Shown here: piece after piece, positions 2,086-26,176 of the stretch | Numbering within the stretch: the stretch's first letter is position 1 | Layout: every line of letters begins with the position of its first letter | Origin: a virus | Taxonomy: Duplodnaviria > Caudoviricetes | Reading direction: 5' to 3' (one strand) | IMG/VR virus record: IMGVR_UViG_3300020045_013114 | Coordinates: 1-53,524 of that record | DNA length: 53,524 nt | Notes under the pieces: generated by a model | What the model was told of the DNA's origin: nothing | Databases searched by the model: none | What the model saw: the letters and a program-made list of their open reading frames with translations, nothing else | Made by a program: the position numbers and the translations under genes

Positions 2086-4786
2086 CACCAAAAACTAGAG
2101 CAAAAGGGATATTTAAAAAGTTTTCAAAAGGAAAAGATGAACATGGGTGGAATCTATGTGAATTTGATAGCTGTGCAAAACAATGCGCATTAATAGTAGT
2201 TGATGAACTAATAAGTCAAATGTTTTCATTAATGAAAGTTTTCAATGAGGATAGAAGTGAATTTGAAGCAATAGAATTAGACTACTGGCAAAAAGTAAAA
2301 CAAGAAATAGAAAAATTATGAAATTACAAGATGAATTTAAAGGATTGGTATATCCTTATTTAGGAAGTGGTATGTTAATAAATGAAAGTGATGAGTCAGT
2401 TATAGAAACTAATTCTAAAATTTGTGAAAAAGTAGCTGAAAATTTTGCTATTGGGTTTGTTGAATGGCTTAATTATAAAAGTTACAGAGCTTATAGTAAT
2501 GGTTGGGCTAATTTTGAAACGAAAGTGGTTAAGGAAAACGAATTGCTACAAATCTATAAAAAAGAAAAAGGATTATGAACGAATATAATACAGTTATAAA
2601 CCTAATAATATTATCTATGCTCAGTGGATTTATAGGATTTACTATCGCAAAATTTATTTATAAAAAATAATTATGATAAGATTTAGTATTAATTCAGAAA
2701 ATAAAACTATAGAACTTCTTAGTGGTGGTACAATAGAAGAGTTGAGAGATTTGTGTGAGAAGTATAAAGATTATTCTTTTTCAGTTTCTTTTGCGCGGGC
2801 AGAGTCCTTAAACGAAGTGCCAAAAACAGAAAATAAAGGAATGGTAGTCGGGGCAAATTATATTAAGTTAATAGGGAATATTGAACACAACTAATTATGA
2901 CAACAGAACGGTTTAAAGAAATAGAAGAAAGAAATAGACATAATCCAATAGTATTATGCTATGAATATTTCCGAGAAGAAAAAGGAGGGAATATGGATTT
3001 ACAATCTTTTCAAAATAACTTTCAGATTTGGATTATGACACAAACATTTGGAAATATTAATGGAGGATTAAATGCTATTGTTGAATATTTAAAAAATAAA
3101 CACAAATGAAACAGATAAATAAATGGAAACTTCTAACAGAAGATATTGTAGATATTTGGATAAGAGAATATTTTGAAATTTCAAGTGACGAAGATGTAGA
3201 TTTTTATTGGATAGGTGATGAAGTCGGTGGTATATTTGAATTTGCCGACTATTTTATTAGTTTTGTAGATGTATTAAACTGTTATAAGCTAAAGATAACT
3301 AAAGAGCAATTCTTTTTATGGAATGAGTATATATTAGATAATCAGTTTGTTAATATTTCTCTCGCCAAATTTATTTTGTCGCCAGAAGAAAAAGATAAAA
3401 AAGAGAAAGAAAATTTGGAAAGATTAAAAGAGAATGTTATATTTGCAGAGCAAGAATTTAATAAGGCTTTAGAAAATTATAAACAATGAGATACACAGAC
3501 CAAAAATCAAAAACAGTTTACGAAGATATTGAAGTAGAAGTGCCTGATGGAGATAGTTATTTTCACACTTGGAATGAAGATGATGAACCTGAATACTACT
3601 ATAGATTGCATATAAAGAAAGACCCTAGATTTGATACTCTATATTATATTGCAATAACTAAAGTCTGCGCTTATGATGACAACTTTTTTGTAAGCTGGAA
3701 AGAAATAAGTGAATCTGAATTGCCGTATAGTTTAAGAGGGTATTTTTGTGGCGAACAAAAGAAAGAAACAATAACAGAAGAGGAATTCAATAAAGTTAAA
3801 CAAGAAATACTAAATAAACTATGAATTTTTACTACGACCCAATCTTAGGATTACAATATACAAATTTACACCCTACTATAATATTAGACATAGCAGTAAT
3901 ACCTAAAGATTTAGATATTAAACAGTTTTTAAAAGAGTGGCAAGAGAGCTATAACTTATTTTGGGATACAGAAATTAATTATTATCCTCAAATTGAAGTA
4001 ATTGGAAACATAACAGAATATAGATTATGACAGTAGAAGAATTATTAAAAGATAAATTAGAAGAATACTACTATGATGAAGATACTATTATGGTAACAAC
4101 GGCATTTTTAGATATGTTTGCTAAAGAATTTGCTAAAGAAAAATGTAAAGAGTTATTAGAGATAGTGGCAGAGAAAGTTGTAGCAACAGTTGCATTTTCG
4201 CCAGGGCAACCTGTTAGAGGGTATGTTAAAAAAGACAGTATATTAAATGCTGTTGATTTAGACAGTTTTATTATTTAACTTTTTCTGCGGCAAAAATGAA
4301 AGAAACAGACAAATATAAATACTGCAATCATCATCACGAACTAACAGAAGAACACGAGATAGTGGATTTTGGAGAGGGAGAGTTTGTAGCAAACAAAAAA
4401 GCAATACCACTTCTAAAAGCTCTAAACGATTTAGGTTTAAGAACTAGAACACATCATATTGACGCAGTTGGCAATAATAATTTCTTTTCTATTATTTTGG
4501 CGGAAAATATAGAAATAGAAGTAAAAACTGTTAATGAAATCGACGCAGAAAGGACTAAATACAATGGACAAAAAGAATTATTAATACAATGGAGATTATG
4601 AGAACAACAAAAAATGAAAAGTTAATTAAAGAGGTAATAGAAACAAGTGAAATGTTATATTATTATACAAATTCTGCACAAAAACTTTTAAATCGACTAC
4701 AAAATACTAAACTCACACGTACTGAAGAAGAACGTTGGAATACTAAAGAAAGATTGATAGAAGATTTAGAGTCATTTACTTATTAA
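2082..4786 (+). other. Run of translationally coupled small hypothetical ORFs (2082, 2318, 2673, 2897, 3106, 3486, 3821, 4027, 4296, 4589)
   Basis: Abutting or overlapping start/stop codons, same strand, phage-typical sizes. Confidence 0.75.
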
Positions 4787-4788
4787 GT

Positions 4789-4962
4789 ATGAATAGTTTA
4801 GTAGGACAAACGTTAGAATTCGCGCAAAAAGAATTAAAAGACAGAGAATTTAGAATCACAAGAATAGACAATAAACCACTAATGATAACTTGTGATTTCC
4901 ACCCCGACAGATTAAATCTTCAAATAGAAAAAGGAATAATAGTAAAAGTAACAGAAGGATGA
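4789..4962 (+). CDS. 57-aa potato-inhibitor-I / I78-like serine protease inhibitor (absent from the ORF track)
   Basis: MNSLVGQTLEFAQKELKDREFRITRIDNKPLMITCDFHPDRLNLQIEKGIIVKVTEG; LVG...T.D..PDRLN....G pattern. Confidence 0.75.
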   Translation: MNSLVGQTLEFAQKELKDREFRITRIDNKPLMITCDFHPDRLNLQIEKGIIVKVTEG

Positions 4963-6093
4963 CAATAATAGAAAGAAGAATAGTAGAGCAATGTTGGTAT
5001 GAGGATACTTATACTAAAAGGGGATGGGATTCTCACGGGTGGATTTTTAAAGATGATCACCAAGGAATTTTTACAAATTGGGAAATTGTAGAAATATTGG
5101 ACTCGGATAAATATGGAAATCCTTTAATAGGAATCGCCGAAAAAGAAACTGAAATAGATTAATATGCAAGAATTAATAGAAAAGTTAAACGATTTAAAAA
5201 TATTACAAGTAAGAGGTGATTGGCAAGAAAACATTCCTGAAGATATTTGGAAAGAATATTTTGAGAATACCCCTTTTGAAGAAGTAGCTTTTGATTTAGA
5301 TGTTGACACCCATAGATGGTATGAAACATCAACTATAGTTATTAGAATAGACGGTGTTTTTATGGGAATAAATTGTATTACAAATACATTTTCTGAATCT
5401 ATGGACTATGAAGACTGTTATCATTATTTAGAGTTTATGGAGATGGAGGAATTTCAAACCGTTTCATATCGCGCGAAAAAAAGATGAAAACAAAACTTTT
5501 AAGAAAACTAAGAAACAGAGGAAGAAATAAAATAACCATAAACTCCATAACAACAGTTGGGAATACAACTACAGGAATGAAATACAGTTATAATGAAAAT
5601 GAGTATAGCGGATTATTTGATTATGGAGATACAGAGCAAGACGTAAAAGAAAAAGCTTGCCGAAGATATTTAGAAACAAACATAGAACAGATAAGAAAGC
5701 AGTATAAAAAATATAGTTGTAATTTGGCAAAAAAGTAATATGACAGAAAAACAAAAACAGTTGAAAATAGCATTTAGAAAACCTTATGGAGACGATAAGT
5801 ATTTAGTGCAAGAACCTTACAGTGGTGCTTGGATATATGACCAAGAAGACACTTTTAAAATAGATAATATTCCCTTTGAAGCTGAATTAGAATATATAAC
5901 TTATGAAACAGGAAGAAGTTCTTTACATACTATTTGGCGGGATAAAAAAAGAAAATTAGATTATGTTGCCTCCTTTGGAATGTTACACGGTGTAGTTTTA
6001 ATGGATGAAATAAAGGATAGGAAGATTAAAGGAACTTTTCAGTTTTATAAACAAGGCACTTCAATTTTATTAGAATTCGCTCCAAAAAATTAA
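4959..6093 (+). other. Small hypothetical ORFs (4959, 5164, 5484, 5740)
   Basis: Coupled ORFs; no recognised motif. Confidence 0.7.
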
Positions 6094-8881: not shown

Positions 8882-9226
8882 ATGAAAACTTCACTTTACA
8901 CATTTTTTGAAAAAACAATTATTGATAACATCGATTTTGAAGGGTACGAAATAAGTAACGATTGTTATTTATACGACAAGATTAAAACCCTTTACAATAT
9001 CTTTAAGCGCGAATACGGATTTATGATTGAAAGGATAGGCGAACAAAAAGCATTTAGCGAATGGTTGCAAGGTTTACCAAGTGCGTTAACAGTTCCGTTT
9101 TATTATAGTGAAATTTTAGAAAATGCCTTAATTGCTGGTATAAATGTACAGGATGAGGAAAAGTTTTGTTTAGAGTATTGGGATAATTTAAGTAGTGCTT
9201 TTTTTACTCTTAAAGATAACCTTTAA
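8882..9226 (+). CDS. Hypothetical early protein
   Basis: 114-aa ORF with EWLQGLPS motif; TACCTTTA promoter-like box upstream. Confidence 0.75.
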   Translation: MKTSLYTFFEKTIIDNIDFEGYEISNDCYLYDKIKTLYNIFKREYGFMIERIGEQKAFSEWLQGLPSALTVPFYYSEILENALIAGINVQDEEKFCLEYWDNLSSAFFTLKDNL

Positions 9227-9689
9227 TTTTTCCGCGCAAAAAGAAACTAAACAGAAAAACTATGTTACAAACACTAACAGTTTATAGAGAGTGGGAAAGT
9301 AGCTATAATATGCTAACTATCTTAAAAGATGATAAAGGAAAGGTAAAAGCCATTATACCATCGAGCATAAGGCAACCAAGACGCGGACAAAAAACAATAA
9401 AATTAAATTGCTGGACTTGGTTATTAAATTGGGAACACGTACCAAAGGAATATATAAAAGTAAAGGATAGAGTTTAAAAACAATTTAAAATAAATAACTA
9501 TGTTAGATTTTTTATTCGGTGAACAAAGCATCACCATAAGCAAACCAATACACGGAAATTTAAACAATATATTTAAGGTTCGTTATATAGGATATACTAA
9601 AAAGGAAGCAAAAGAAAAGTTTAAACAAGACTTTAAAAAGGAACAAAGTAAGTATTTTATTAATATACCTTAAAATAGTTGATAATATG

Positions 9690-9721
9690 TTTGGTAGTAT
9701 CAATCTAATTTTGTATATTTG
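9690..9721 (+). promoter_or_regulatory. Bacteroidota-type promoter
   Basis: TTTG-N20-TATATTTG. Confidence 0.8.
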
Positions 9722-9730
9722 TTTAATAAA

Positions 9731-9990
9731 TCAATGTTTAACGGTTTAAAAACTTATCAATGGGGTATATCGCAAAGGAAATAAGCACAAATAAAGTGTA
9801 TTATAGCAAAGGAGCAAACAAAATAAGCGAAAAAATAGGGTGCAACTACTCTACACTAACAAAATTTTTCAATTTAAAGGAAAATATCGGCAAAGAAAAG
9901 ACTATAAAAGGGTTTATTATATCAAAAACAATCGATTTAATCAACCAAAATAGGGGAAATAATATAAAATTCAATGTTTAACGGTTTAAA
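9731..9990 (+). repeat. Exact 20-bp direct repeat TCAATGTTTAACGGTTTAAA (9731-9750, 9971-9990)
   Basis: Read directly; brackets ORF 9760-9981. Confidence 0.9.
9760..9981 (+). CDS. Small HTH DNA-binding protein
   Basis: GANKISEKIGCNYSTLTKFF helix-turn-helix pattern; basic. Confidence 0.6.
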   Translation: MGYIAKEISTNKVYYSKGANKISEKIGCNYSTLTKFFNLKENIGKEKTIKGFIISKTIDLINQNRGNNIKFNV

Positions 9991-10567
9991 CGCTTATAGA
10001 TTTTGCGCAAAAACAAATTAAAAACAGAAAAAATGAGAACTAAAATAGAAAACAGTCTAATACAATTAGCAAACAACATAAAAGATAAAGGACTATACAA
10101 AACAATACAAACAATCCTTTACGGTAACAGTAAACACATAGCACCAAACGAATGTAAGTGGTAAAATTATTGTTAGATGCGTCTAAATATAGGTTAGGAC
10201 ACCCCTAAACAAATTTTTAGTCTTGTCTAAAAAACACTAAAACAATCCTCCCAAATCAGGGGCGCGCTATCTAATACCCTAAATAATAACCTTAACAAAC
10301 ATTAACATTTAAAAGCTATGGAAACCCCAAAAGAATACGCACAAAGAAAGTTTAAAGAAAACAACAGTATGAAAGGTTTAGCAAGAATCTTTATAAGTAA
10401 TATGCTTTACAATTCTTTTTTACAGTCAGATAAAGATTTTTATTCTGATGCTTTGAAAGAATTAGATTTGCTCTAATTTCTTTTCGCGGCAAACCATTAA
10501 CAAACAACCATTATAATTAAACCTAATAGCATTTTTAACCCTTTTAAAGCAATAAAAATTTAAAGTT

Positions 10568-12396
10568 ATGCAAGTACATACATTTAGCACAGGAGGTTGT
10601 ACAGATGGAATTTATTTAGAATCACTATCTTTGACAAAAGAAGGGGTTTCTAATTTAATTGATACGCATTTTGATAGAGAATATATCGATAGGGATTTTC
10701 AAAAAGCAGTTGTTAAAGGGGATAGAATTATAGTATCTTATATTGATACGGATACAAAGGAAGTTGAAACAGAATCTTATAGGTTAATTTCTTTTGATGT
10801 TTATTAATCTTTTCCGCGCGAACTTACAATTTAATAAACAAAACATTACTACAATCAATTTAAACAACAGTAACAACCCTTTTAAACCATAAACAAATGA
10901 AAACAACATCTAAATACCAACAAGCAAAAACAAGGCTTAAAACGCTTGCAAAAGATATAAAACTATCGCACCCAACAGACAAACCTATGATAAGAATGGT
11001 TATTAACGATGGCGTTGATGCTTATACAGGATACTTTAGTCTTTCTGACTATCAAAGGGATTTATTGTCTAATTATGCTTGTAAATTGCATCCTAAAAAT
11101 TAACTGTTCTTTTTAATTCTTTTTTGCCGAAAATTAAAAACAATATTAAACCACTAAAAAATTAAATTATGGAACTTAACGCGAATCAAATATTAACTTG
11201 GCAACAAGCGTATGAATGGCAAAAGTTAGAAACTCCAAAATATATTACAGGTTTTAATCTTAAAACACATAAAGAATTTATGAAGCCGTTTTTAAAAGCG
11301 GGTTATATACATAAAGATACTTTAAAATATACAGGAGTTTTTAGACTAACTAAAAAAGGAATAGAAAAATTTGAGGAATTAAAAGACCAGCTTTAATTTT
11401 TTCGCGCAAAAACAAATAAAAACAGCAATTCAATACAACAATATTTTCAAATAAAAAAATTTATTTTCAATTATTTTAATCTTACATTTGTAATGTAATA
11501 AAAACACTAAAAATTATGAAAAATATTCCCTACGATTACCTTTATTTAGGTTTTGCTTTAGCCTTTTTTGCCGATTTATCTTTTTTAAATTGGAAATTTT
11601 ATGCAATACTCATACCTTTTGCAGTTTTTGAAACTTTTAAAAATTTTAAAAAGAATTAACTATGAATACAAATTTAGAAAAAATACAAGACCTGCTTTTT
11701 AAAAGATTTAATACTTCAATCGATGTTAGCTATGAAAATTTTAGATACACTATTACACCAACCGACAATATTAAATTAGCAATGGAGTTGGAAGTTGAGG
11801 TTGATAGCGAGGATTATTTTTATGACCTTGATAAAATAGAAACAGCAATTAATTTATTATTCTTATGAAACCATTAGATAGATTAAGAGAACAGTTTTAA
11901 ACCTCTCTTTAATTCTTTTTCCCGCGCCACAATAGTAAACAAACACCAAACATTTAATTTAAGCATATTAACAGCCGTTTTAAGGCACAAAAAATAAAAT
12001 TATGATATTAGAGCCACCAAAAACAAAAGAGGACTTTGAAGCTATAAAACACACTATTATAGAACTTATGCAAAATCCCTATGCGGATGGAAGAATGATT
12101 GAAAAATTAAAAGTAAAACTAATTAACACGGAAAATAAACTTAAAGAATTATAATTATGAAAGATATAGTATTAACAGATATGGGCGAAGTAATTGATAA
12201 TTTAGTCCGTGATTATGATTGTAGTCAATATTTAATGGATTGGATTTTGGCAAGGATTAATGAAATAGAAGAGAGAGATAATAATTTTGTCTTAATTCGT
12301 GAAGAGGAAGGATTAGGATACATATTAGACGAGTTTGATAACTTTGAGGACGAACCAATTGAAACAACTACATTTTGGTTTGAGGATTTTCAATAA
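10568..12396 (+). other. Loosely spaced early-type ORFs (10568, 10897, 11169, 11662, 12157)
   Basis: 68-79 aa ORFs with A/C-rich spacers; promoter box TACATTTG at 11483. Confidence 0.65.
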
Positions 12397-12470
12397 GGAA
12401 TTAATAATTAATATCCAAATTTTATTTTAAATATTTTTACTTTACCTTTACACTATAAAATAAAGACATT

Positions 12471-12890
12471 ATGACACGTATTAACGCCTCAATCAAACCG
12501 TTTGAACTTTCTAATAGTATGTTATTCGCCGAATATAGAGAAATAAAACGCATACCAAACACAATTAAAACAGGTAAAGCGGTTATAAAAAATATACCAA
12601 AACAGTTTAAATTAGAACAGAATCACGTTAAATTCTTTTACGACAAGATTTTATATTTAAAACGTCGAAGCGATGCTCTTTACATTGAATGTTTGAACCG
12701 TGGCATTAATGCGCCTGATTATTCAGAATGTTACAAAGACATACCAAGCCATTTATTTAATGATTGGCGCGAAACAAAAGAATCAAGAGAACTTTTAAAA
12801 GAGAGAATTAATAAACGCTTAACAGAATCAAAACAAACTATTAGATTTTATGATAGAGTTGTAACGCTTGAAGAAGCACTAATAAAATAA
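12471..12890 (+). CDS. denV: Pyrimidine-dimer DNA glycosylase (T4 endonuclease V-like)
   Basis: MTRIN..L.AEYREIKR..IP..FKL...HVKFFYDK..YL..R....ECL.RG. Confidence 0.92.
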   Translation: MTRINASIKPFELSNSMLFAEYREIKRIPNTIKTGKAVIKNIPKQFKLEQNHVKFFYDKILYLKRRSDALYIECLNRGINAPDYSECYKDIPSHLFNDWRETKESRELLKERINKRLTESKQTIRFYDRVVTLEEALIK

Positions 12891-24112: not shown

Positions 24113-24348
24113 GAAAAATAACAGAACAATAAGAAAGATAAATATAAGTATTTTATATTAAAAAACAGTGGAAGTAAGGGCACTGAAAACATTGTGATAT
24201 AGATAAGATATTGCACTATTCAAGATAACTGAAAACGAATGAAGAAAGTTAAGTGTTATGTTTATTAAGTATGAGTCAGTCATTTAATTGATAGCGTTAG
24301 GAGCGTGGCTTTTTCAATCTTGAGAAATGAGTTCTGTTTTTATTTTTC
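24113..24348 (+). ncRNA. Candidate structured ncRNA or leader (about 235 nt)
   Basis: ORF-free region directly after a promoter; helices cagtg/cactg, tgtgatat/atattgca, tcaagat/atcttga, gagtca/tggctt. Confidence 0.45.
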
Positions 24349-24361
24349 GCGCAAAAAAACT

Positions 24362-24562
24362 ATGAAAAAATACAATAAAATAACAAAGCAACAAGTACTA
24401 GACCTATATAAAGAAAGAACAGTTGTAAACAGAGAAGCAATAACTAAAAAATATGGTTGTTCTGTGTATGCAGTTAGAAGAGTTATAGAGGACTTACTTG
24501 ATGACAATAAAATTAAATTAACTAATTACGGATACAAACAAACACCCGTACCAATGCGATAG
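24362..24562 (+). CDS. Small winged-HTH-like protein
   Basis: QVLDLY..REAITKKYGCSVYAVRRVIEDL; ATG 24362 preferred over GTG 24305. Confidence 0.6.
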   Translation: MKKYNKITKQQVLDLYKERTVVNREAITKKYGCSVYAVRRVIEDLLDDNKIKLTNYGYKQTPVPMR

Positions 24563-24780
24563 GGAATAAATAAACGCCCTATCTTAGACGAAAGGTCAAA
24601 TAGTTCAGCAACGGGTGTTGAATAAAATATATTGCTTCTAAGTGAAGTACGAGCTATGAATATATGGGAACAAGTTAAAGAGATTTGATACTTAACTCTT
24701 GAATTCATATGCTGGTTATCTACAATATATTTTTTAAGAGTCGAGGGCTCAGTCAGTTGATTTGAGCACAGCTACCTCAG
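24541..24780 (+). ncRNA. Three consecutive structured RNA candidates
   Basis: aacacccgt/acgggtgtt with gataggg/ccctatc; aaaatatattg/caatatatttt with tatgaat/attcata; gagg-gctca/tgagc-cctc. Confidence 0.5.
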
Positions 24781-24814
24781 GATTTGATACAGTGACCTGC
24801 ACACGCGGTAAAAT

Positions 24815-24915
24815 GGGAAAGTATATCAGTTGGTAGAACTTATGCGGTAGACGTGCAACTCGTCATTAAATACTAGTGTGCATAAGGGTCGGGGATTCGA
24901 GTTCCTCCTTTTCCA
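24815..24915 (+). tRNA. Atypical tRNA-like RNA (101 nt) with Ala identity elements and expanded anticodon arm
   Basis: Acceptor GGGAAAG/CTTTTCC+A, D-loop AGTTGGTA, T-arm GGGGA-TTCGAGT-TCCTC; 48-nt arm in the anticodon position; no encoded CCA. Confidence 0.65.
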
Positions 24916-24926
24916 CAGAGCGATAG

Positions 24927-25172
24927 GTTCTTTATAGTGAGAAAAGCCCTTAAATTGGCGACTATAATGACTTATAGGAAAGACTATTATTTTATAGTAT
25001 AACAGTTCAGAAGCTATAATCTTAAAATACTGAATTGAGGTAAATATTCCCTTCCGATAAGAAGAATAGGGGGTAAATTAAAAAGAAACAGTTATTTAAG
25101 GTTACATTGTGAAGCGGTTAACACACCTTAGATTAAATCATAGAATCCGCTATTATAGGTTGCTGTTTCTTT
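24927..25172 (+). ncRNA. Further structured RNA candidates
   Basis: ttatagt/actataa with gcc/ggc; cagttcag/ctgaattg; aaagaaacag/ctgtttcttt with taaggt/acctta and loop-loop agcgg/ccgct. Confidence 0.4.
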
Positions 25173-25314
25173 ATTTTTTGGCGCAAAAAACAATTTAAAA
25201 ACAAATAATTATGAACTTATCAGAATTAGAGTTACACGTAAAAAAAGAATTACTTATAGATTGGATTAATCAAATGGATGAGCAGGGATTGGATGAATTA
25301 ATTGAAGAATATTT

Positions 25315-26176
25315 ATGAAAACAGCAATACAAGAATTAATTGAGTATATTGAAAAAAGATATGCAGGACAAGTCTCACAAGGAATAGTAGTTAAAGCAAG
25401 AGAGCTTTTAGAAAAAGAAAAACAGCAGATAATTGATGCTTGTAAATATGGAAATAATTTTGAGCAAGGAGATTTAATCTGCGAAGTATATTATAATCAA
25501 ACGTATAAAAACAAATAAATATGAACAAAGCTTTTGAAAAAACAGACAAAATAGTATTAGACTCCAATTGGGATTTAACCCCAGATGCAGATAACGGAGT
25601 GATTTTAACCTTCTCAGAAATTAGAGAAAGGGAGAAAACTAAAAAAGAGGGCGGAAAAACAATTAAAACAGGAGAATTTGAAGAGTATACATATGAAGAT
25701 AAGTTGTATTATCCGAGAATTGTACAAGCAATAAGAAAGTATTATGAAACCACTCTAAACAATAGTGAAACATTTAAAGAAATAATTGAGAAAGAAGATA
25801 AAATTATAGTTTTACTTGAAAAAATTGATAAAGAATTTAAACAATTTAATTAATTATGGGAGTAGACTATACAGGAAATTACGGAGCAGGAATACAAATC
25901 ATATTACCTGAATTTGAAGAAGGACACGAATTTTATGAAGATGAGTTTAGCTGGCTTGATGATTTATTAGAAGATACGGACTATTATTACTTTGAAGTTG
26001 GTGAAGAAATGTATGGAGGAGAGAAGAATGAGATATATGTTTGTATTAGTGAGCCGTTTAAAAAAGGATTTTATGATTTAGATTTTAAAATAGATGCTTT
26101 CTTAGCTTTTTTGCGCGAAAATAAAATAGAAACAGTTGGAGAATTTGACGTAGTAGGAGGATTATTAATTGACTAA
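25315..26176 (+). other. Hypothetical ORFs 25315, 25521, 25856 (last is strongly acidic)
   Basis: Coupled ORFs. Confidence 0.75.

What the first reader, a model, noticed from the sequence alone, without database searches (positions are those of the whole stretch)
24815..24915. tRNA mimic with G3-U70/A73 alanine identity and an oversized anticodon arm
Seen: a complete 7-bp acceptor stem (G1-C72, G2-C71, G3-U70, discriminator A), a canonical T-arm and D-loop, and a weak D-stem. The anticodon arm is replaced by 48 nt: cttatgc/gcataag enclosing gacg-tgcaact-cgtc, which contains TGC but not in a canonical loop. Established: G3-U70 is the AlaRS determinant, also used by tmRNA. Inference: a mini-tmRNA-like or decoy tRNA, an anticodon-nuclease-resistant mimic, or a tRNA with an unusual short intron.
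Basis: partly seen in the sequence, partly recalled or inferred. Interest (0 to 1): 0.75.

Follow-up and report, generated by a model that had tools for sequence, protein, structure and literature searches.

The report
Non-decoding tRNA look-alike in a phage
A large environmental phage carries a 101-base gene that folds like a transfer RNA, except that a long rod-like hairpin replaces the part that reads codons; it is probably a tRNA mimic or a decaying tRNA gene rather than a working tRNA or a tmRNA.

Summary
Window 24815-24915 (+) has a perfect 7-bp acceptor stem (G1-C72, G2-C71, G3.U70, A73), a T arm with loop TTCGAGT, a tRNA-type D loop on a weak D stem, and a 48-nt arm in place of the anticodon arm.

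Standard finders reject it. ARAGORN at default and the Rfam tRNA and tmRNA models find nothing. ARAGORN calls it tRNA-Thr(AGT) with a 27-nt intron only at a relaxed threshold.

The window is a fragment of a ~145-kb low-GC phage. The element lies in a 750-nt ORF-free locus whose modules are swapped among relatives. The same slot holds a normal tRNA-Met in one relative. In others it holds a conserved 141-145-nt tRNA-shaped RNA with a ~70-nt arm ("family A", not in Rfam).

A near-identical copy in another metagenome keeps the helix but gains a base inside the supposed anticodon loop, which argues against an intron-bearing tRNA. G3.U70 occurs in only 5 of 11 family A members.

Best reading: a non-decoding tRNA mimic processed like a tRNA. 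Its function is unknown, and decay is a serious rival. Moderately interesting.

The parts
24815..24821 (+). Acceptor stem, 5' strand (GGGAAAG)
   Evidence: pairs 7 of 7 with 24908-24914. Nearly the same stem occurs in relatives L008/L018 (GGGAAAT/ATTTTCC) and L027 (GGGAAAG/CTTTTTT).
24822..24839 (+). T8 A9 and the D region (TATC-AGTTGGTA-GAAC) with a weak D stem
   Evidence: read directly. A14, G18 and G19 are present, and 2 of 4 canonical D-stem pairs form. One search's MFE draws an alternative 4-bp stem instead (positions 10-13 with 18-21). Run X1 has T>C at 24834, in the D loop.
24839..24886 (+). 48-nt arm replacing the anticodon arm: basal helix CTTATGC/GCATAAG, middle helix GGTA/TACT, terminal hairpin GACG-TGCAACT-CGTC
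   Evidence: MFE: 7+4+4 bp with 3'-side bulges of 5 and 6 nt. In run X1, A>G at 24882 turns U-A into U.G. T>C at 24879 turns a possible G.U into G-C. The insert has no match in IMG/VR and no significant similarity to 60 tRNAs of related loci.
24873..24879 (+). CTAGTGT, the 7 nt that relaxed ARAGORN reads as an anticodon loop (anticodon AGT)
   Evidence: -i0,100 -ps90 only. Run X1 has a G inserted behind 24877 and T>C at 24879, so the loop is not kept.
24887..24890 (+). Variable-region equivalent (GGTC)
24891..24907 (+). T arm GGGGA-TTCGAGT-TCCTC
   Evidence: This is the only part that the weak Rfam YrlA match aligns with confidence.
24908..24915 (+). Acceptor stem 3' strand (CTTTTCC) and discriminator A. 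No CCA is encoded; CAGAG follows.
   Evidence: The trailer CAGAGCGAT equals the trailer that follows a second tRNA-shaped gene in run X1 (loose end at 24926), and is close to the trailers in L008 and L009.
24733..24813 (+). Conserved upstream RNA motif ("motif X") that abuts the element
   Evidence: BLAST matches to L018 and L026 and to G003; alignment with L018, L026 and L027. In the relatives it is also followed by a tRNA-shaped gene, or in L018 by a hairpin.
25085..25179 (+). Long hairpin (GAAACAG...CTGTTTC) plus a T run: the likely end of the non-coding transcription unit
   Evidence: Read. The 3' part from 25163 on is conserved in L009, L010, L012 and L018. The simple terminator scan did not list it because its loop is too long for that scan, so its role as a terminator is inferred.
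24363..24563 (+). Small ORF upstream of the non-coding stretch, whose transcript may run into it
   Evidence: Read; one search lists the longer GTG-started frame 24305-24562. A homologous small ORF lies in L018 (BLAST match 24365-24473).

Best explanation
The element is a tRNA-derived, non-decoding tRNA look-alike. It lies in a rapidly reshuffled non-coding RNA locus of a large phage whose promoters look Bacteroidota-type.

Inferred mechanism:
- It is transcribed on the + strand as part of a multi-module RNA that ends at the hairpin and T run near 25170.
- Its intact acceptor/T-arm "elbow" shell lets host RNase P and 3' end-processing enzymes cut it out, and CCA is then added.
- The product is a stable RNA of about 101 nt that cannot read codons, because a 15-bp rod takes the place of the anticodon stem-loop.
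- It then acts through its tRNA-like shell. Either it binds or titrates a host or phage factor that recognises the tRNA elbow or acceptor end, or it simply serves as a processing signal that releases the neighbouring RNA modules.
- G1-C72, G2-C71, G3.U70 and A73 would in principle let alanyl-tRNA synthetase charge it. This is not required by the model.

Shown here: the shape, the homology of the slot and flanks, retention of the helix in a second genotype, and the existence of a conserved covarying class of similar RNAs in related phages. Inferred: transcription, processing, stability, charging and any binding partner.
For: Shape:
- Perfect acceptor stem and T arm, and tRNA-type D-loop residues.
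- A shell of this kind appears in 4 of 200 shuffles of the window.
- By eye, roughly 45 of the 101 bases are G or C, against 27-32% in the window.

Persistence across genotypes:
- The same element occurs in at least two other genotypes with different flanks.
- Run X1 contig 1 covers 24731-24916, then continues with the sequence that follows tRNA-Met in L003, L018 and L027.
- A run X3 contig covers 24811-24850 behind an L009-like upstream sequence (compare).
- So the module survived several recombination events.

Helix retention:
- Of the 3 substitutions and 1 insertion that X1 shows inside the element, both substitutions in the basal helix keep pairing (U-A to U.G; G.U to G-C). The other two changes lie in loops or bulges.

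Re-registering relative to L008 (by-eye comparison):
- The T loop and 3' strand are shifted by one base.
- Matching changes on the 5' strands (GGAGG to GGGGA; position 7 T to G) keep both stems perfect.

Precedent in relatives:
- Family A is a 141-145-nt tRNA-shaped RNA with a ~70-nt arm in place of the anticodon arm.
- It has 11 distinct sequences from 14 loci.
- Compensatory changes occur in 5 acceptor pairs, 4 T-stem pairs and 2 basal arm pairs.
- All 11 keep a 4/4-paired D stem, spelled with five different sequence pairs.
- It sits inside phage tRNA arrays, spaced like a tRNA.
- Its closest members share the window element's acceptor stem and 3' trailer.

No canonical tRNA lies in the window. 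Complete relatives have 0-2 tRNAs. This locus therefore holds the clade's only tRNA-type genes near this position.
Against: - No expression data. No RNA run was listed, so transcription and processing are untested.
- The fold is no more stable than shuffles (z = -0.98).
- The D stem is weak, and the last T-stem pair is A-U rather than the near-universal G53-C61 (the usual pair is recalled).
- The insert was not found outside near-identical copies. Two exact patterns gave 0 hits in IMG/VR. BLAST found no copy in 5 related phage records.
- The element scores only 17.3 bits with the family A model, like an ordinary tRNA (14-26 bits), against 132-159 bits for members. Family A's covariation therefore cannot be transferred to it.
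- The X1 evidence rests on one contig at depth about 4, and only 2 informative substitutions.
- The locus is visibly decaying or reshuffling in relatives. L018's tRNA-Met has a non-canonical T loop, and L004/L005 have no RNA locus at all.
- The window itself has lost the linker and the second tRNA-shaped gene that X1 keeps.
Confidence: 0.5

Rival explanations
1. It is a decaying or chimeric tRNA gene with no function of its own. On this view it is a by-product of recombination between neighbouring tRNA-type genes in a plastic locus, such as the tRNA-Met slot and the family A slot. Its anticodon arm has been replaced by unrelated sequence.
For: - A relative has a normal tRNA-Met in the equivalent slot (L003 5133-5208, 64.7 bits).
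- In X1 the element is followed by the sequence that follows tRNA-Met elsewhere.
- The window copy carries the 3' trailer of the second gene, so at least one deletion between the two genes has occurred.
- The D stem is weak, the last T-stem pair is A-U, and there is no 7-nt anticodon loop.
- The insert is unique to near-identical copies.
- Fold energy is not exceptional.
- L018's tRNA-Met and the L002 element also look degenerate.
- L004 and L005 lack the locus entirely.
Against: - The acceptor and T stems are perfect, and were re-registered with matching changes relative to L008.
- The long arm is a clean 7+4+4-bp rod rather than random sequence.
- Both helix substitutions in X1 keep pairing.
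- The module persists in three flank contexts.
- The element is much more GC-rich than the surrounding 27-32% GC genome, which neutral decay should erode.
Confidence: 0.3
2. It is a real decoding tRNA interrupted by a short intron, like the "enigmatic introns" reported in Lak megaphage tRNAs. The 27 nt would be removed by an unknown route to give tRNA-Thr(AGU) or another isoacceptor.
For: - ARAGORN with introns allowed and the threshold lowered to 90% gives tRNA-Thr(AGT) with a 27-nt intron at 31/32 and a well-formed loop CTAGTGT.
- The Lak megaphage preprint (10.1101/356790; passages read) reports introns in phage tRNAs, predicted with eukaryote settings.
- Several other tRNA-shaped genes with extra sequence occur in related arrays.
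Against: - ARAGORN finds nothing at default settings, even with introns allowed.
- No Rfam tRNA match reaches E<=10.
- The X1 copy has a G inserted directly after the putative anticodon, plus T>C two bases on. This makes an 8-nt loop while extending the helix.
- In the MFE fold the insert junctions do not lie in a bulge-helix-bulge: both bulges are on the 3' strand, 5 and 6 nt long.
- 27 nt is far too short for a self-splicing group I intron (established knowledge, recalled).
- An A34 Thr anticodon with G37 would be unusual for bacteria (recalled).
- ARAGORN's intron calls on the related odd genes give isotypes that do not fit their scaffolds.
Confidence: 0.08
3. It is a miniature tmRNA-like rescuer. 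It would combine an alanine-accepting tRNA-like domain, a helix-2-like stem, and a very short reading frame in the insert (GCA ACT CGT CAT TAA).
For: - G1-C72, G2-C71, G3.U70 and A73 match the alanine identity set that tmRNA also uses (sequence; the identity set is recalled).
- The D stem is weak, as in tmRNA (recalled).
- A GCA codon followed four codons later by TAA can be read in the insert.
- Relatives L026 and L027 carry a tmRNA in the same locus.
Against: - ARAGORN's tmRNA mode finds nothing, even at 80% threshold.
- No Rfam tmRNA family matches.
- There are no pseudoknots.
- A 4-codon frame has no comparative support.
- The tmRNAs of L026 and L027 are ordinary permuted ones, separate from the tRNA-shaped genes. 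None is found in 5 closer relatives.
- G3.U70 is present in only 5 of 11 family A members.
Confidence: 0.03
4. It is a Y RNA-like (YrlA-type) module. Its tRNA-like part would be read together with the downstream 24927-24973 hairpins and would bind a Ro/Rsr protein.
For: The only Rfam match in the region is YrlA (RF02553) at 24863-24973, aligned over the whole model.
Against: - The score is 17.1 bits against a gathering score of 69, with E = 1.3. Only the T arm aligns with confidence.
- In X1 the element has a different downstream neighbour, so the proposed fold is not conserved.
- No TROVE/Ro family appears among the 25 families listed for the 54 window ORFs scanned against Pfam. The window is only about 37% of the genome.
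Confidence: 0.02

Closest known systems
It has no Rfam family.
   Same: - Same genomic slot and 3' trailer in the closest relatives.
- Nearly the same acceptor stem (GGGAAAT/ATTTTCC in L008/L018; GGGAAAG/CTTTTTT in L027), with A73.
- A T arm with a TTCGA loop.
- The anticodon arm is replaced by a long helical arm, and no CCA is encoded.
   Different: - The window element lacks the family's conserved core and its enlarged 17-20-nt D loop.
- Its arm is 48 nt rather than about 80 nt.
- It scores 17.3 bits with the family model, against 132-159 bits for members.
- Pairwise alignment of its interior to members is no better than shuffled (z from -0.1 to 1.2).
Canonical phage tRNA (for example the tRNA-Met of relative L003)
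   Same: Same slot in the locus. Same D loop AGTTGGT(T)A and T loop TTCGAGT. A 7-bp acceptor stem and A73.
   Different: There is no 5-bp anticodon stem with a 7-nt loop. It is not detected by ARAGORN at default or by Rfam RF00005. The D stem is weak.
Intron-bearing tRNA genes of Lak megaphages (Devoto et al., preprint 10.1101/356790)
   Same: Phage tRNA-type genes that are longer than expected and are only called when introns are allowed. The hosts are Bacteroidota (Prevotella, per the paper; passages read).
   Different: The Lak introns are reported as conserved and as giving recognisable isotypes. Here the only intron solution is sub-threshold and is not kept in a near-identical copy.
tmRNA tRNA-like domain
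   Same: G3.U70 with A73, a degenerate D stem, a T arm, and a large insertion between the two halves of the tRNA-like domain.
   Different: Only 34 nt lie inside the basal helix. There are no pseudoknots and no supported tag frame. ARAGORN and Rfam tmRNA searches are negative.
Phage T4 RNA C and RNA D (small stable RNAs from the T4 tRNA region)
   Same: Small non-tRNA RNAs encoded among phage tRNA genes, with unknown roles. [quoted passage not shown] That they are co-processed with the tRNAs is my recollection.
   Different: No sequence relation was tested.
Bacterial Y RNA-like YrlA (RF02553)
   Same: A non-decoding RNA that mimics the tRNA acceptor/T/D shell.
   Different: In YrlA the RNA ends lie in the protein-binding stem and the acceptor stem is closed by a loop (recalled). 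The match here is 17.1 bits against a gathering score of 69.

Membership tests
Canonical tRNA (Rfam RF00005 / ARAGORN) | Detected by tRNA models at their normal thresholds | tested here: not met
   ARAGORN at default finds 0 genes in the window. Rfam at gathering threshold gives 0 matches. No RF00005 match reaches E<=10 in 24500-25300. The same model gives 64.7 bits for L003's tRNA-Met.
Canonical tRNA (Rfam RF00005 / ARAGORN) | 5-bp anticodon stem closing a 7-nt loop with U33 | tested here: not met
   The basal helix encloses 34 nt. The terminal hairpin loop TGCAACT has G at its second position.
Canonical tRNA (Rfam RF00005 / ARAGORN) | 7-bp acceptor stem, T arm with a TTCRA loop, and D-loop G18 G19 | tested here: met
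Intron-bearing tRNA | Removing the insert leaves an anticodon loop that relatives keep | tested here: not met
   The loop CTAGTGT (24873-24879) is called only at -ps90. Run X1 has a G inserted behind 24877 and T>C at 24879 (one contig, depth about 4).
Intron-bearing tRNA | A recognisable splicing signal (bulge-helix-bulge, or a group I/II intron core) | tested here: not met
   The MFE fold puts both bulges on the 3' strand, 5 and 6 nt long, with no 3-4-3 bulge-helix-bulge. No Rfam intron family matches. That 27 nt is too short for a group I core is recalled knowledge.
tmRNA | Detected by tmRNA models (ARAGORN -m; Rfam tmRNA families) | tested here: not met
   (-m at -ps80: nothing). The same tools do find a permuted tmRNA in L026 and L027.
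tmRNA | G3.U70 with A73 in the tRNA-like domain | tested here: met
   Read.
tmRNA | A tag reading frame with comparative support, and pseudoknots | tested here: not met
   Only a 4-codon GCA...TAA frame can be read. No pseudoknot is evident, though the method does not predict pseudoknots. No diverged copies exist to test the frame.
Alanine-accepting RNA (AlaRS substrate) | G3.U70 wobble pair, A73 and G2-C71 in the acceptor stem | tested here: met
   Read. Pair 4:69 is A-U. G3.U70 is present in 5 of 11 family A members. The identity set itself is recalled.
Alanine-accepting RNA (AlaRS substrate) | Actual 3' CCA addition and alanylation | not testable with these tools
   No CCA is encoded: the trailer is CAGAG. 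This needs biochemistry.
   17.3 bits with filters off, against 132.3-158.6 bits for 12 member loci and 13.0-26.0 bits for ordinary tRNAs. The arm core is absent.
YrlA / bacterial Y RNA (RF02553) | Rfam gathering score, and a Ro-binding stem formed by the RNA ends | tested here: not met
   17.1 bits against a gathering score of 69, E = 1.3. The downstream partner sequence is not linked to the element in X1.
YrlA / bacterial Y RNA (RF02553) | An associated Ro/Rsr (TROVE) gene | tested here: inconclusive
   TROVE is not among the 25 families listed for the 54 window ORFs. The window is about 37% of the genome, and the batch output lists only the top 25 families.

The most novel reading that the evidence does not exclude
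The element would be one member of an undescribed class of phage-encoded, non-decoding tRNA mimics. The class would also include the much better supported family A and several other odd tRNA-shaped genes in related phage tRNA arrays.

These RNAs keep the acceptor/T/D shell and replace the anticodon arm by diverse rods. They would be cut out and CCA-tailed like tRNAs, and in this clade perhaps alanylated through G3.U70/A73.

They would act as sponges or decoys for host factors that recognise the tRNA elbow or 3' end. Examples are tRNA-targeting defence enzymes that act on the acceptor end. This would protect the real tRNA pool during infection.
Probability: 0.2. Interest if true: 0.75.

Novelty: new variant of a known kind. 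Interest (0 to 1): 0.45.

Why it matters
Phage tRNA regions are known to hold RNAs that are not tRNAs (T4 RNA C and D) and tRNA genes with unexplained extra sequence (Lak megaphages). Nobody knows what these do.

This locus gives a compact, testable example. The RNA has a complete tRNA shell and alanine-type acceptor features but no way to decode. Its relatives include a conserved, covarying family that is absent from Rfam.

If such RNAs turn out to be processed and stable, they would be candidates for a new layer of phage-host conflict around tRNA-recognising enzymes. If they are only recombination debris, the locus still documents how quickly phage tRNA-type genes are shuffled through their shared shell sequences.

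The window element alone is weak evidence either way. The family in its relatives is the better entry point.

Tried and rejected
Direct similarity searches:
- BLAST of 24300-25400 against GenBank phages: no match.
- Exact 30-mer of the T arm and acceptor, and exact 18-mer of the insert, against IMG/VR: 0 hits each.
- BLAST of 24740-24930 against 5 related phage records: only motif X matched, in G003.

Origin of the insert:
- Local alignment of the 34-nt insert against 60 ARAGORN tRNAs from related loci gave a best score of 16. Shuffled inserts reached that score in 83.5% of 200 trials. A nested tRNA fragment is therefore not supported.
- Whole-element alignments to tRNA-Met gave z = 2.3-3.8. 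I attribute this to the generic D-loop and T-loop letters.

Expression:
- No RNA holder was listed by the look-up of sequencing runs, so there is no evidence either way.

Family A outside phage metagenomes:
- The 18-mer core gave 8 hits in genome contigs. None is a member by model R1, and I estimate that about this many are expected by chance.
- No match in GenBank phages.
- One IMG/VR scan was wasted on a pattern with a wrong fixed spacer. The corrected gapped pattern returned the same 12 contigs.

Alternative D-region helix in family A:
- The RNAalifold helix TCGCTC/GAGTGG shows no covariation, and three kinds of single change break it.
- I prefer the 4-bp D stem, which covaries.

Tag-like frame in the linker of relatives:
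- ARAGORN calls it a tmRNA tag in L027.
- The frame is open stop-to-stop in 4 of 4 loci, without a conserved start codon.
- My by-eye count of variable sites per codon position is 7/8/7, so coding is not supported.

Other checks:
- The sigma-70 promoter scan is uninformative here: 13 sites against 7.3 expected.
- The literature searches found no description of this RNA. Those five listings are the basis for saying it is not in print.
- The Lak paper's supplementary intron table could not be opened (supplements closed).
Full report
**What is there.** The window is an IMG/VR virus record of 53,524 bases, estimated 37% complete. GC content is 27-32%, and almost all ORFs lie on the + strand. The neighbours are replication and nucleotide-metabolism genes: two exonucleases upstream and an anaerobic ribonucleotide reductase downstream. 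After the exonuclease gene (ends 24073) comes a promoter-like TATATTTG box. It fits the Bacteroidota -7 consensus as I recall it. Next come about 230 nt of non-coding sequence and a small ORF (24363-24563). A further 750 nt with no ORF of 60 aa or more runs to 25314. The finding lies in that stretch.

**The observation.** Position 1 is set at 24815 throughout.
- GGGAAAG pairs 7 of 7 with CTTTTCC (positions 94-100). G3.T70 is the only wobble, and A is the discriminator.
- The T arm is GGGGA-TTCGAGT-TCCTC.
- The D region is TATC-AGTTGGTA-GAAC, with only 2 of 4 canonical stem pairs.
- Positions 25-72 are the 48-nt arm.
- ViennaRNA draws the arm as a rod of 7+4+4 bp with two bulges on the 3' side and a 7-nt loop TGCAACT. 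Overall stability is ordinary: z = -0.98, and 34 of 200 shuffles fold as well.
- A shell defined by T arm, acceptor pairing, T8 and a D-loop motif occurs once in the window. It occurs in 4 of 200 dinucleotide shuffles. Without the D-loop requirement it occurs in 95 of 200.

**What the standard tools say.**
- ARAGORN finds no tRNA or tmRNA in the window.
- Rfam finds nothing at gathering thresholds.
- With E up to 10 on 24500-25300, the only match is YrlA at 17.1 bits (gathering score 69, E = 1.3). Only the T arm is aligned with confidence.
- ARAGORN with introns allowed finds nothing at default.
- With the score threshold lowered to 90%, ARAGORN reports tRNA-Thr(AGT) with a 27-nt intron between positions 31 and 32.
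- The tmRNA mode finds nothing even at 80%.

**Relatives and the locus.** I fetched related phage loci using the 236-aa exonuclease as anchor.
- L003 (59% amino-acid identity, a complete 131-kb genome) has a normal tRNA-Met (CAT) at 5133-5208 in the same intergenic region.
- L004 and L005 have no RNA locus there.
- L008 is the closest relative (91% identity). It has a 145-nt tRNA-shaped gene at 1007-1151, with acceptor GGGAAAT/ATTTTCC, A73 and T arm GGAGG-TTCGATT-CCTCC. About 95 nt lie between the D and T regions, and its trailer CAGAG matches the window's.
- L009 (73% identity) has a homologous 144-nt gene with acceptor GGGGGTA/TACTTCC.

**Family A.** Two conserved stretches of these genes retrieved 12 IMG/VR contigs. 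With L008 and L009 this makes 14 loci and 11 distinct sequences, which I call family A.
- RNAalifold finds 39 pairs, 14 of them with compensatory changes. These include 5 of 7 acceptor pairs, 4 of 5 T-stem pairs and 2 pairs at the base of the long arm.
- My own tabulation shows a 4-bp D stem paired 4/4 in 11 of 11 sequences, spelled with five different sequence pairs. The D loop is 17-20 nt. The base of the arm is paired 5/5 in 9 sequences and 4/5 in 2.
- In several contigs the gene sits inside long tRNA arrays, a few bases from its neighbours.
- It has no Rfam match and no match in GenBank phages.
- The 8 bacterial-genome hits to its 18-mer core are not members.

Family A is therefore a real, conserved, apparently undescribed tRNA-shaped RNA with an oversized arm.

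**Is the window element a member?** No.
- With the family model it scores 17.3 bits, and only with filters off. At default filters it gives no match at E up to 10.
- That is the range of ordinary tRNAs (13.0-26.0 bits), not of members (132.3-158.6 bits).
- Its interior aligns to members no better than shuffled sequence (z from -0.1 to 1.2).
- It has a normal-sized D loop.
- What it shares with its nearest family A neighbours is the acceptor stem, A73, the T-arm type and the trailer.

**A second genotype.** Contigs of four metagenome runs were laid on 24400-25350.
- Run X1 has a contig that covers 24731-24916 with 5 substitutions and 4 gap letters. This contig skips 24618-24730, so one upstream module is a discrete indel.
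- Inside the element it differs by T>C at 24834 (D loop), a G inserted behind 24877, T>C at 24879, and A>G at 24882.
- A>G at 24882 changes U29-A68 to U.G. T>C at 24879 changes a possible G32.U65 to G-C. Both helix substitutions keep pairing.
- The inserted G and T>C at 24879 fall inside the 7 nt that relaxed ARAGORN reads as the anticodon loop. That loop would become 8 nt.
- Caveat: this is one contig at depth about 4.

**Flank contexts.**
- Beyond 24916 the X1 contig continues with the sequence that follows tRNA-Met in L003, L018 and L027.
- A second X1 contig shows the end of another tRNA-shaped gene (acceptor 3' strand ATCCTCC, A73), followed by CAGAGCGAT and then window 24926-25178.
- So in X1 the element sits in the tRNA-Met slot. 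A linker and a second tRNA-shaped gene follow it.
- The window has lost that linker and second gene, through a deletion between the two ...CCA-CAG ends.
- A run X3 contig has the element's 5' half (24811-24850) behind an L009-like upstream sequence.

The module thus occurs in three flank contexts. Recombination through the shared shell sequences is evidently frequent.

**Other context.**
- Directly upstream (24733-24813) is a motif conserved in L018, L026 and L027.
- L026 and L027 also carry an ordinary permuted tmRNA (RF04321, 58-64 bits, with a tag frame ending in a stop) elsewhere in the locus. Five closer relatives do not.
- Complete relatives have only 0-2 canonical tRNAs.
- Pfam families found among 54 window ORFs include no tRNA-repair, Ro or synthetase family among the 25 listed.

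**Interpretation.**
- The tmRNA reading fails every test I could run except the acceptor identity.
- The intron reading rests on a sub-threshold call. It is contradicted by the X1 copy, lacks a bulge-helix-bulge in the predicted fold, and has no known splicing route in bacteria for a 27-nt insert (recalled).
- Two readings remain: a non-decoding mimic that is kept because its tRNA shell is useful, or recombination debris.
- For the mimic: both stems are perfect and were re-registered with matching changes relative to L008. The arm is a clean rod. Pairing is kept in X1. The module survives in three contexts. GC content is high in an AT-rich genome. Family A sets a precedent.
- For debris: the insert is unique to near-identical copies. 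The D stem is weak and the last T-stem pair is A-U. The fold energy is ordinary. A normal tRNA sits in the slot elsewhere. The locus shows obvious churn.
- I put the mimic at 0.5 and debris at 0.3.
- The alanine identity is real in sequence. It is shared by the window element and by 5 of 11 family A members, all with related acceptor stems. Common descent explains it as well as selection does.

**Comparison with the known.**
- The closest described things are the small RNAs C and D of the T4 tRNA region, whose roles are unknown (PMC3014915, passage read).
- Also close are the "enigmatic introns" of Lak megaphage tRNAs (10.1101/356790, passages read).
- Five literature searches turned up no description of this element or of family A.
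- I file the window element as a new variant of a known kind: tRNA-derived non-tRNA genes in phage tRNA regions.
- Its interest is moderate. The more valuable by-product is family A, which lies outside the window.

Noticed in passing
L008 1007-1151; L009 2306-2449; L018 2849-2993(-); L019 5584-5727(-); L020 8332-8475(-); L021 1278-1422(-); L023 6992-7135(-); L025 14170-14313; L026 2956-3097(-); L027 757-898; L030 3746-3886: Family A is a conserved 141-145-nt tRNA-shaped RNA of uncultured phages. It has a covarying acceptor stem, D stem, T stem and basal arm helix, a 17-20-nt D loop, and a ~70-nt arm with an invariant core. It often sits inside tRNA arrays. It is not in Rfam 15 or GenBank phages. 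It looks like an undescribed RNA class and deserves its own report.
   Followed up: partly
window 24733-24813; L018 3385-3456(-); L026 about 3987-4030(-); L027 about 43-115: A conserved RNA motif ("motif X") lies directly upstream of a tRNA-shaped gene in the window, L026 and L027, and of a hairpin in L018. Its inner hairpin shows compensatory changes by eye (GCTCA/TGAGC against GCTTC/GAAGC). It has no Rfam match.
   Followed up: partly
L003 about 5208-5290; L018 about 3060-3140(-); L027 611-690; L026 downstream of 3453(-): The linker after tRNA-Met holds a 7-bp hairpin and a stop-to-stop frame of 24-27 codons, kept open in 4 of 4 loci with no conserved start codon. ARAGORN reads it as a tmRNA tag in L027. 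Variable sites per codon position are 7/8/7 by my count, so coding is not supported. In run X1 this linker follows the window-type element.
   Followed up: partly
L027 242-504; L026 3560-3824(-): Phage-encoded permuted (two-piece) tmRNA, above the Rfam gathering score (64.1 and 58.4 bits against 47). It has an acceptor piece, a 5' strand GGGGGTG, and a tag frame ending in a stop codon. It is absent from five closer relatives of the window.
   Followed up: partly
L020 10422-10518(-); L026 3832-3953(-); L007 5714-5838; L023 4749-4897(-); L030 6256-6405; L027 124-234; L022 8007-8122: Further tRNA-shaped genes of 97-150 nt have good acceptor and T arms but abnormal anticodon regions. L023 and L030 share a conserved insert of their own. 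ARAGORN with introns gives them isotypes that do not fit their scaffolds.
   Followed up: no
window 24618-24730: A 113-nt module closed by an AT-rich helix is cleanly absent from the run X1 contig, which joins 24617 to 24731. Run X4 has 116 other letters between 24696 and 24730.
   Followed up: partly
window 24330-24360 and 25163-25200: A hairpin ending in CTGTTT, followed by a T run and the box TTTTCGCGCAAAAAA / TTTTTGGCGCAAAAAA, stands before two successive genes. The second copy is conserved in L009, L010, L012 and L018. It is probably a terminator plus a promoter or regulatory box of this phage group.
   Followed up: no
window 9226-12471: About 3.2 kb without any ORF of 80 aa or more, in an otherwise densely coding genome. 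No tRNA and no Rfam family lie there.
   Followed up: no
L002 about 4750-4856 (the same sequence as L013): A short tRNA-like element with acceptor GGGGGAT/ATCCTCC, G3.T70 and A73, but only about 3 T-stem pairs. It lies in the same slot of a complete 141-kb relative in which Rfam finds no tRNA at all. Run X1's second tRNA-shaped gene has the same acceptor 3' strand.
   Followed up: no
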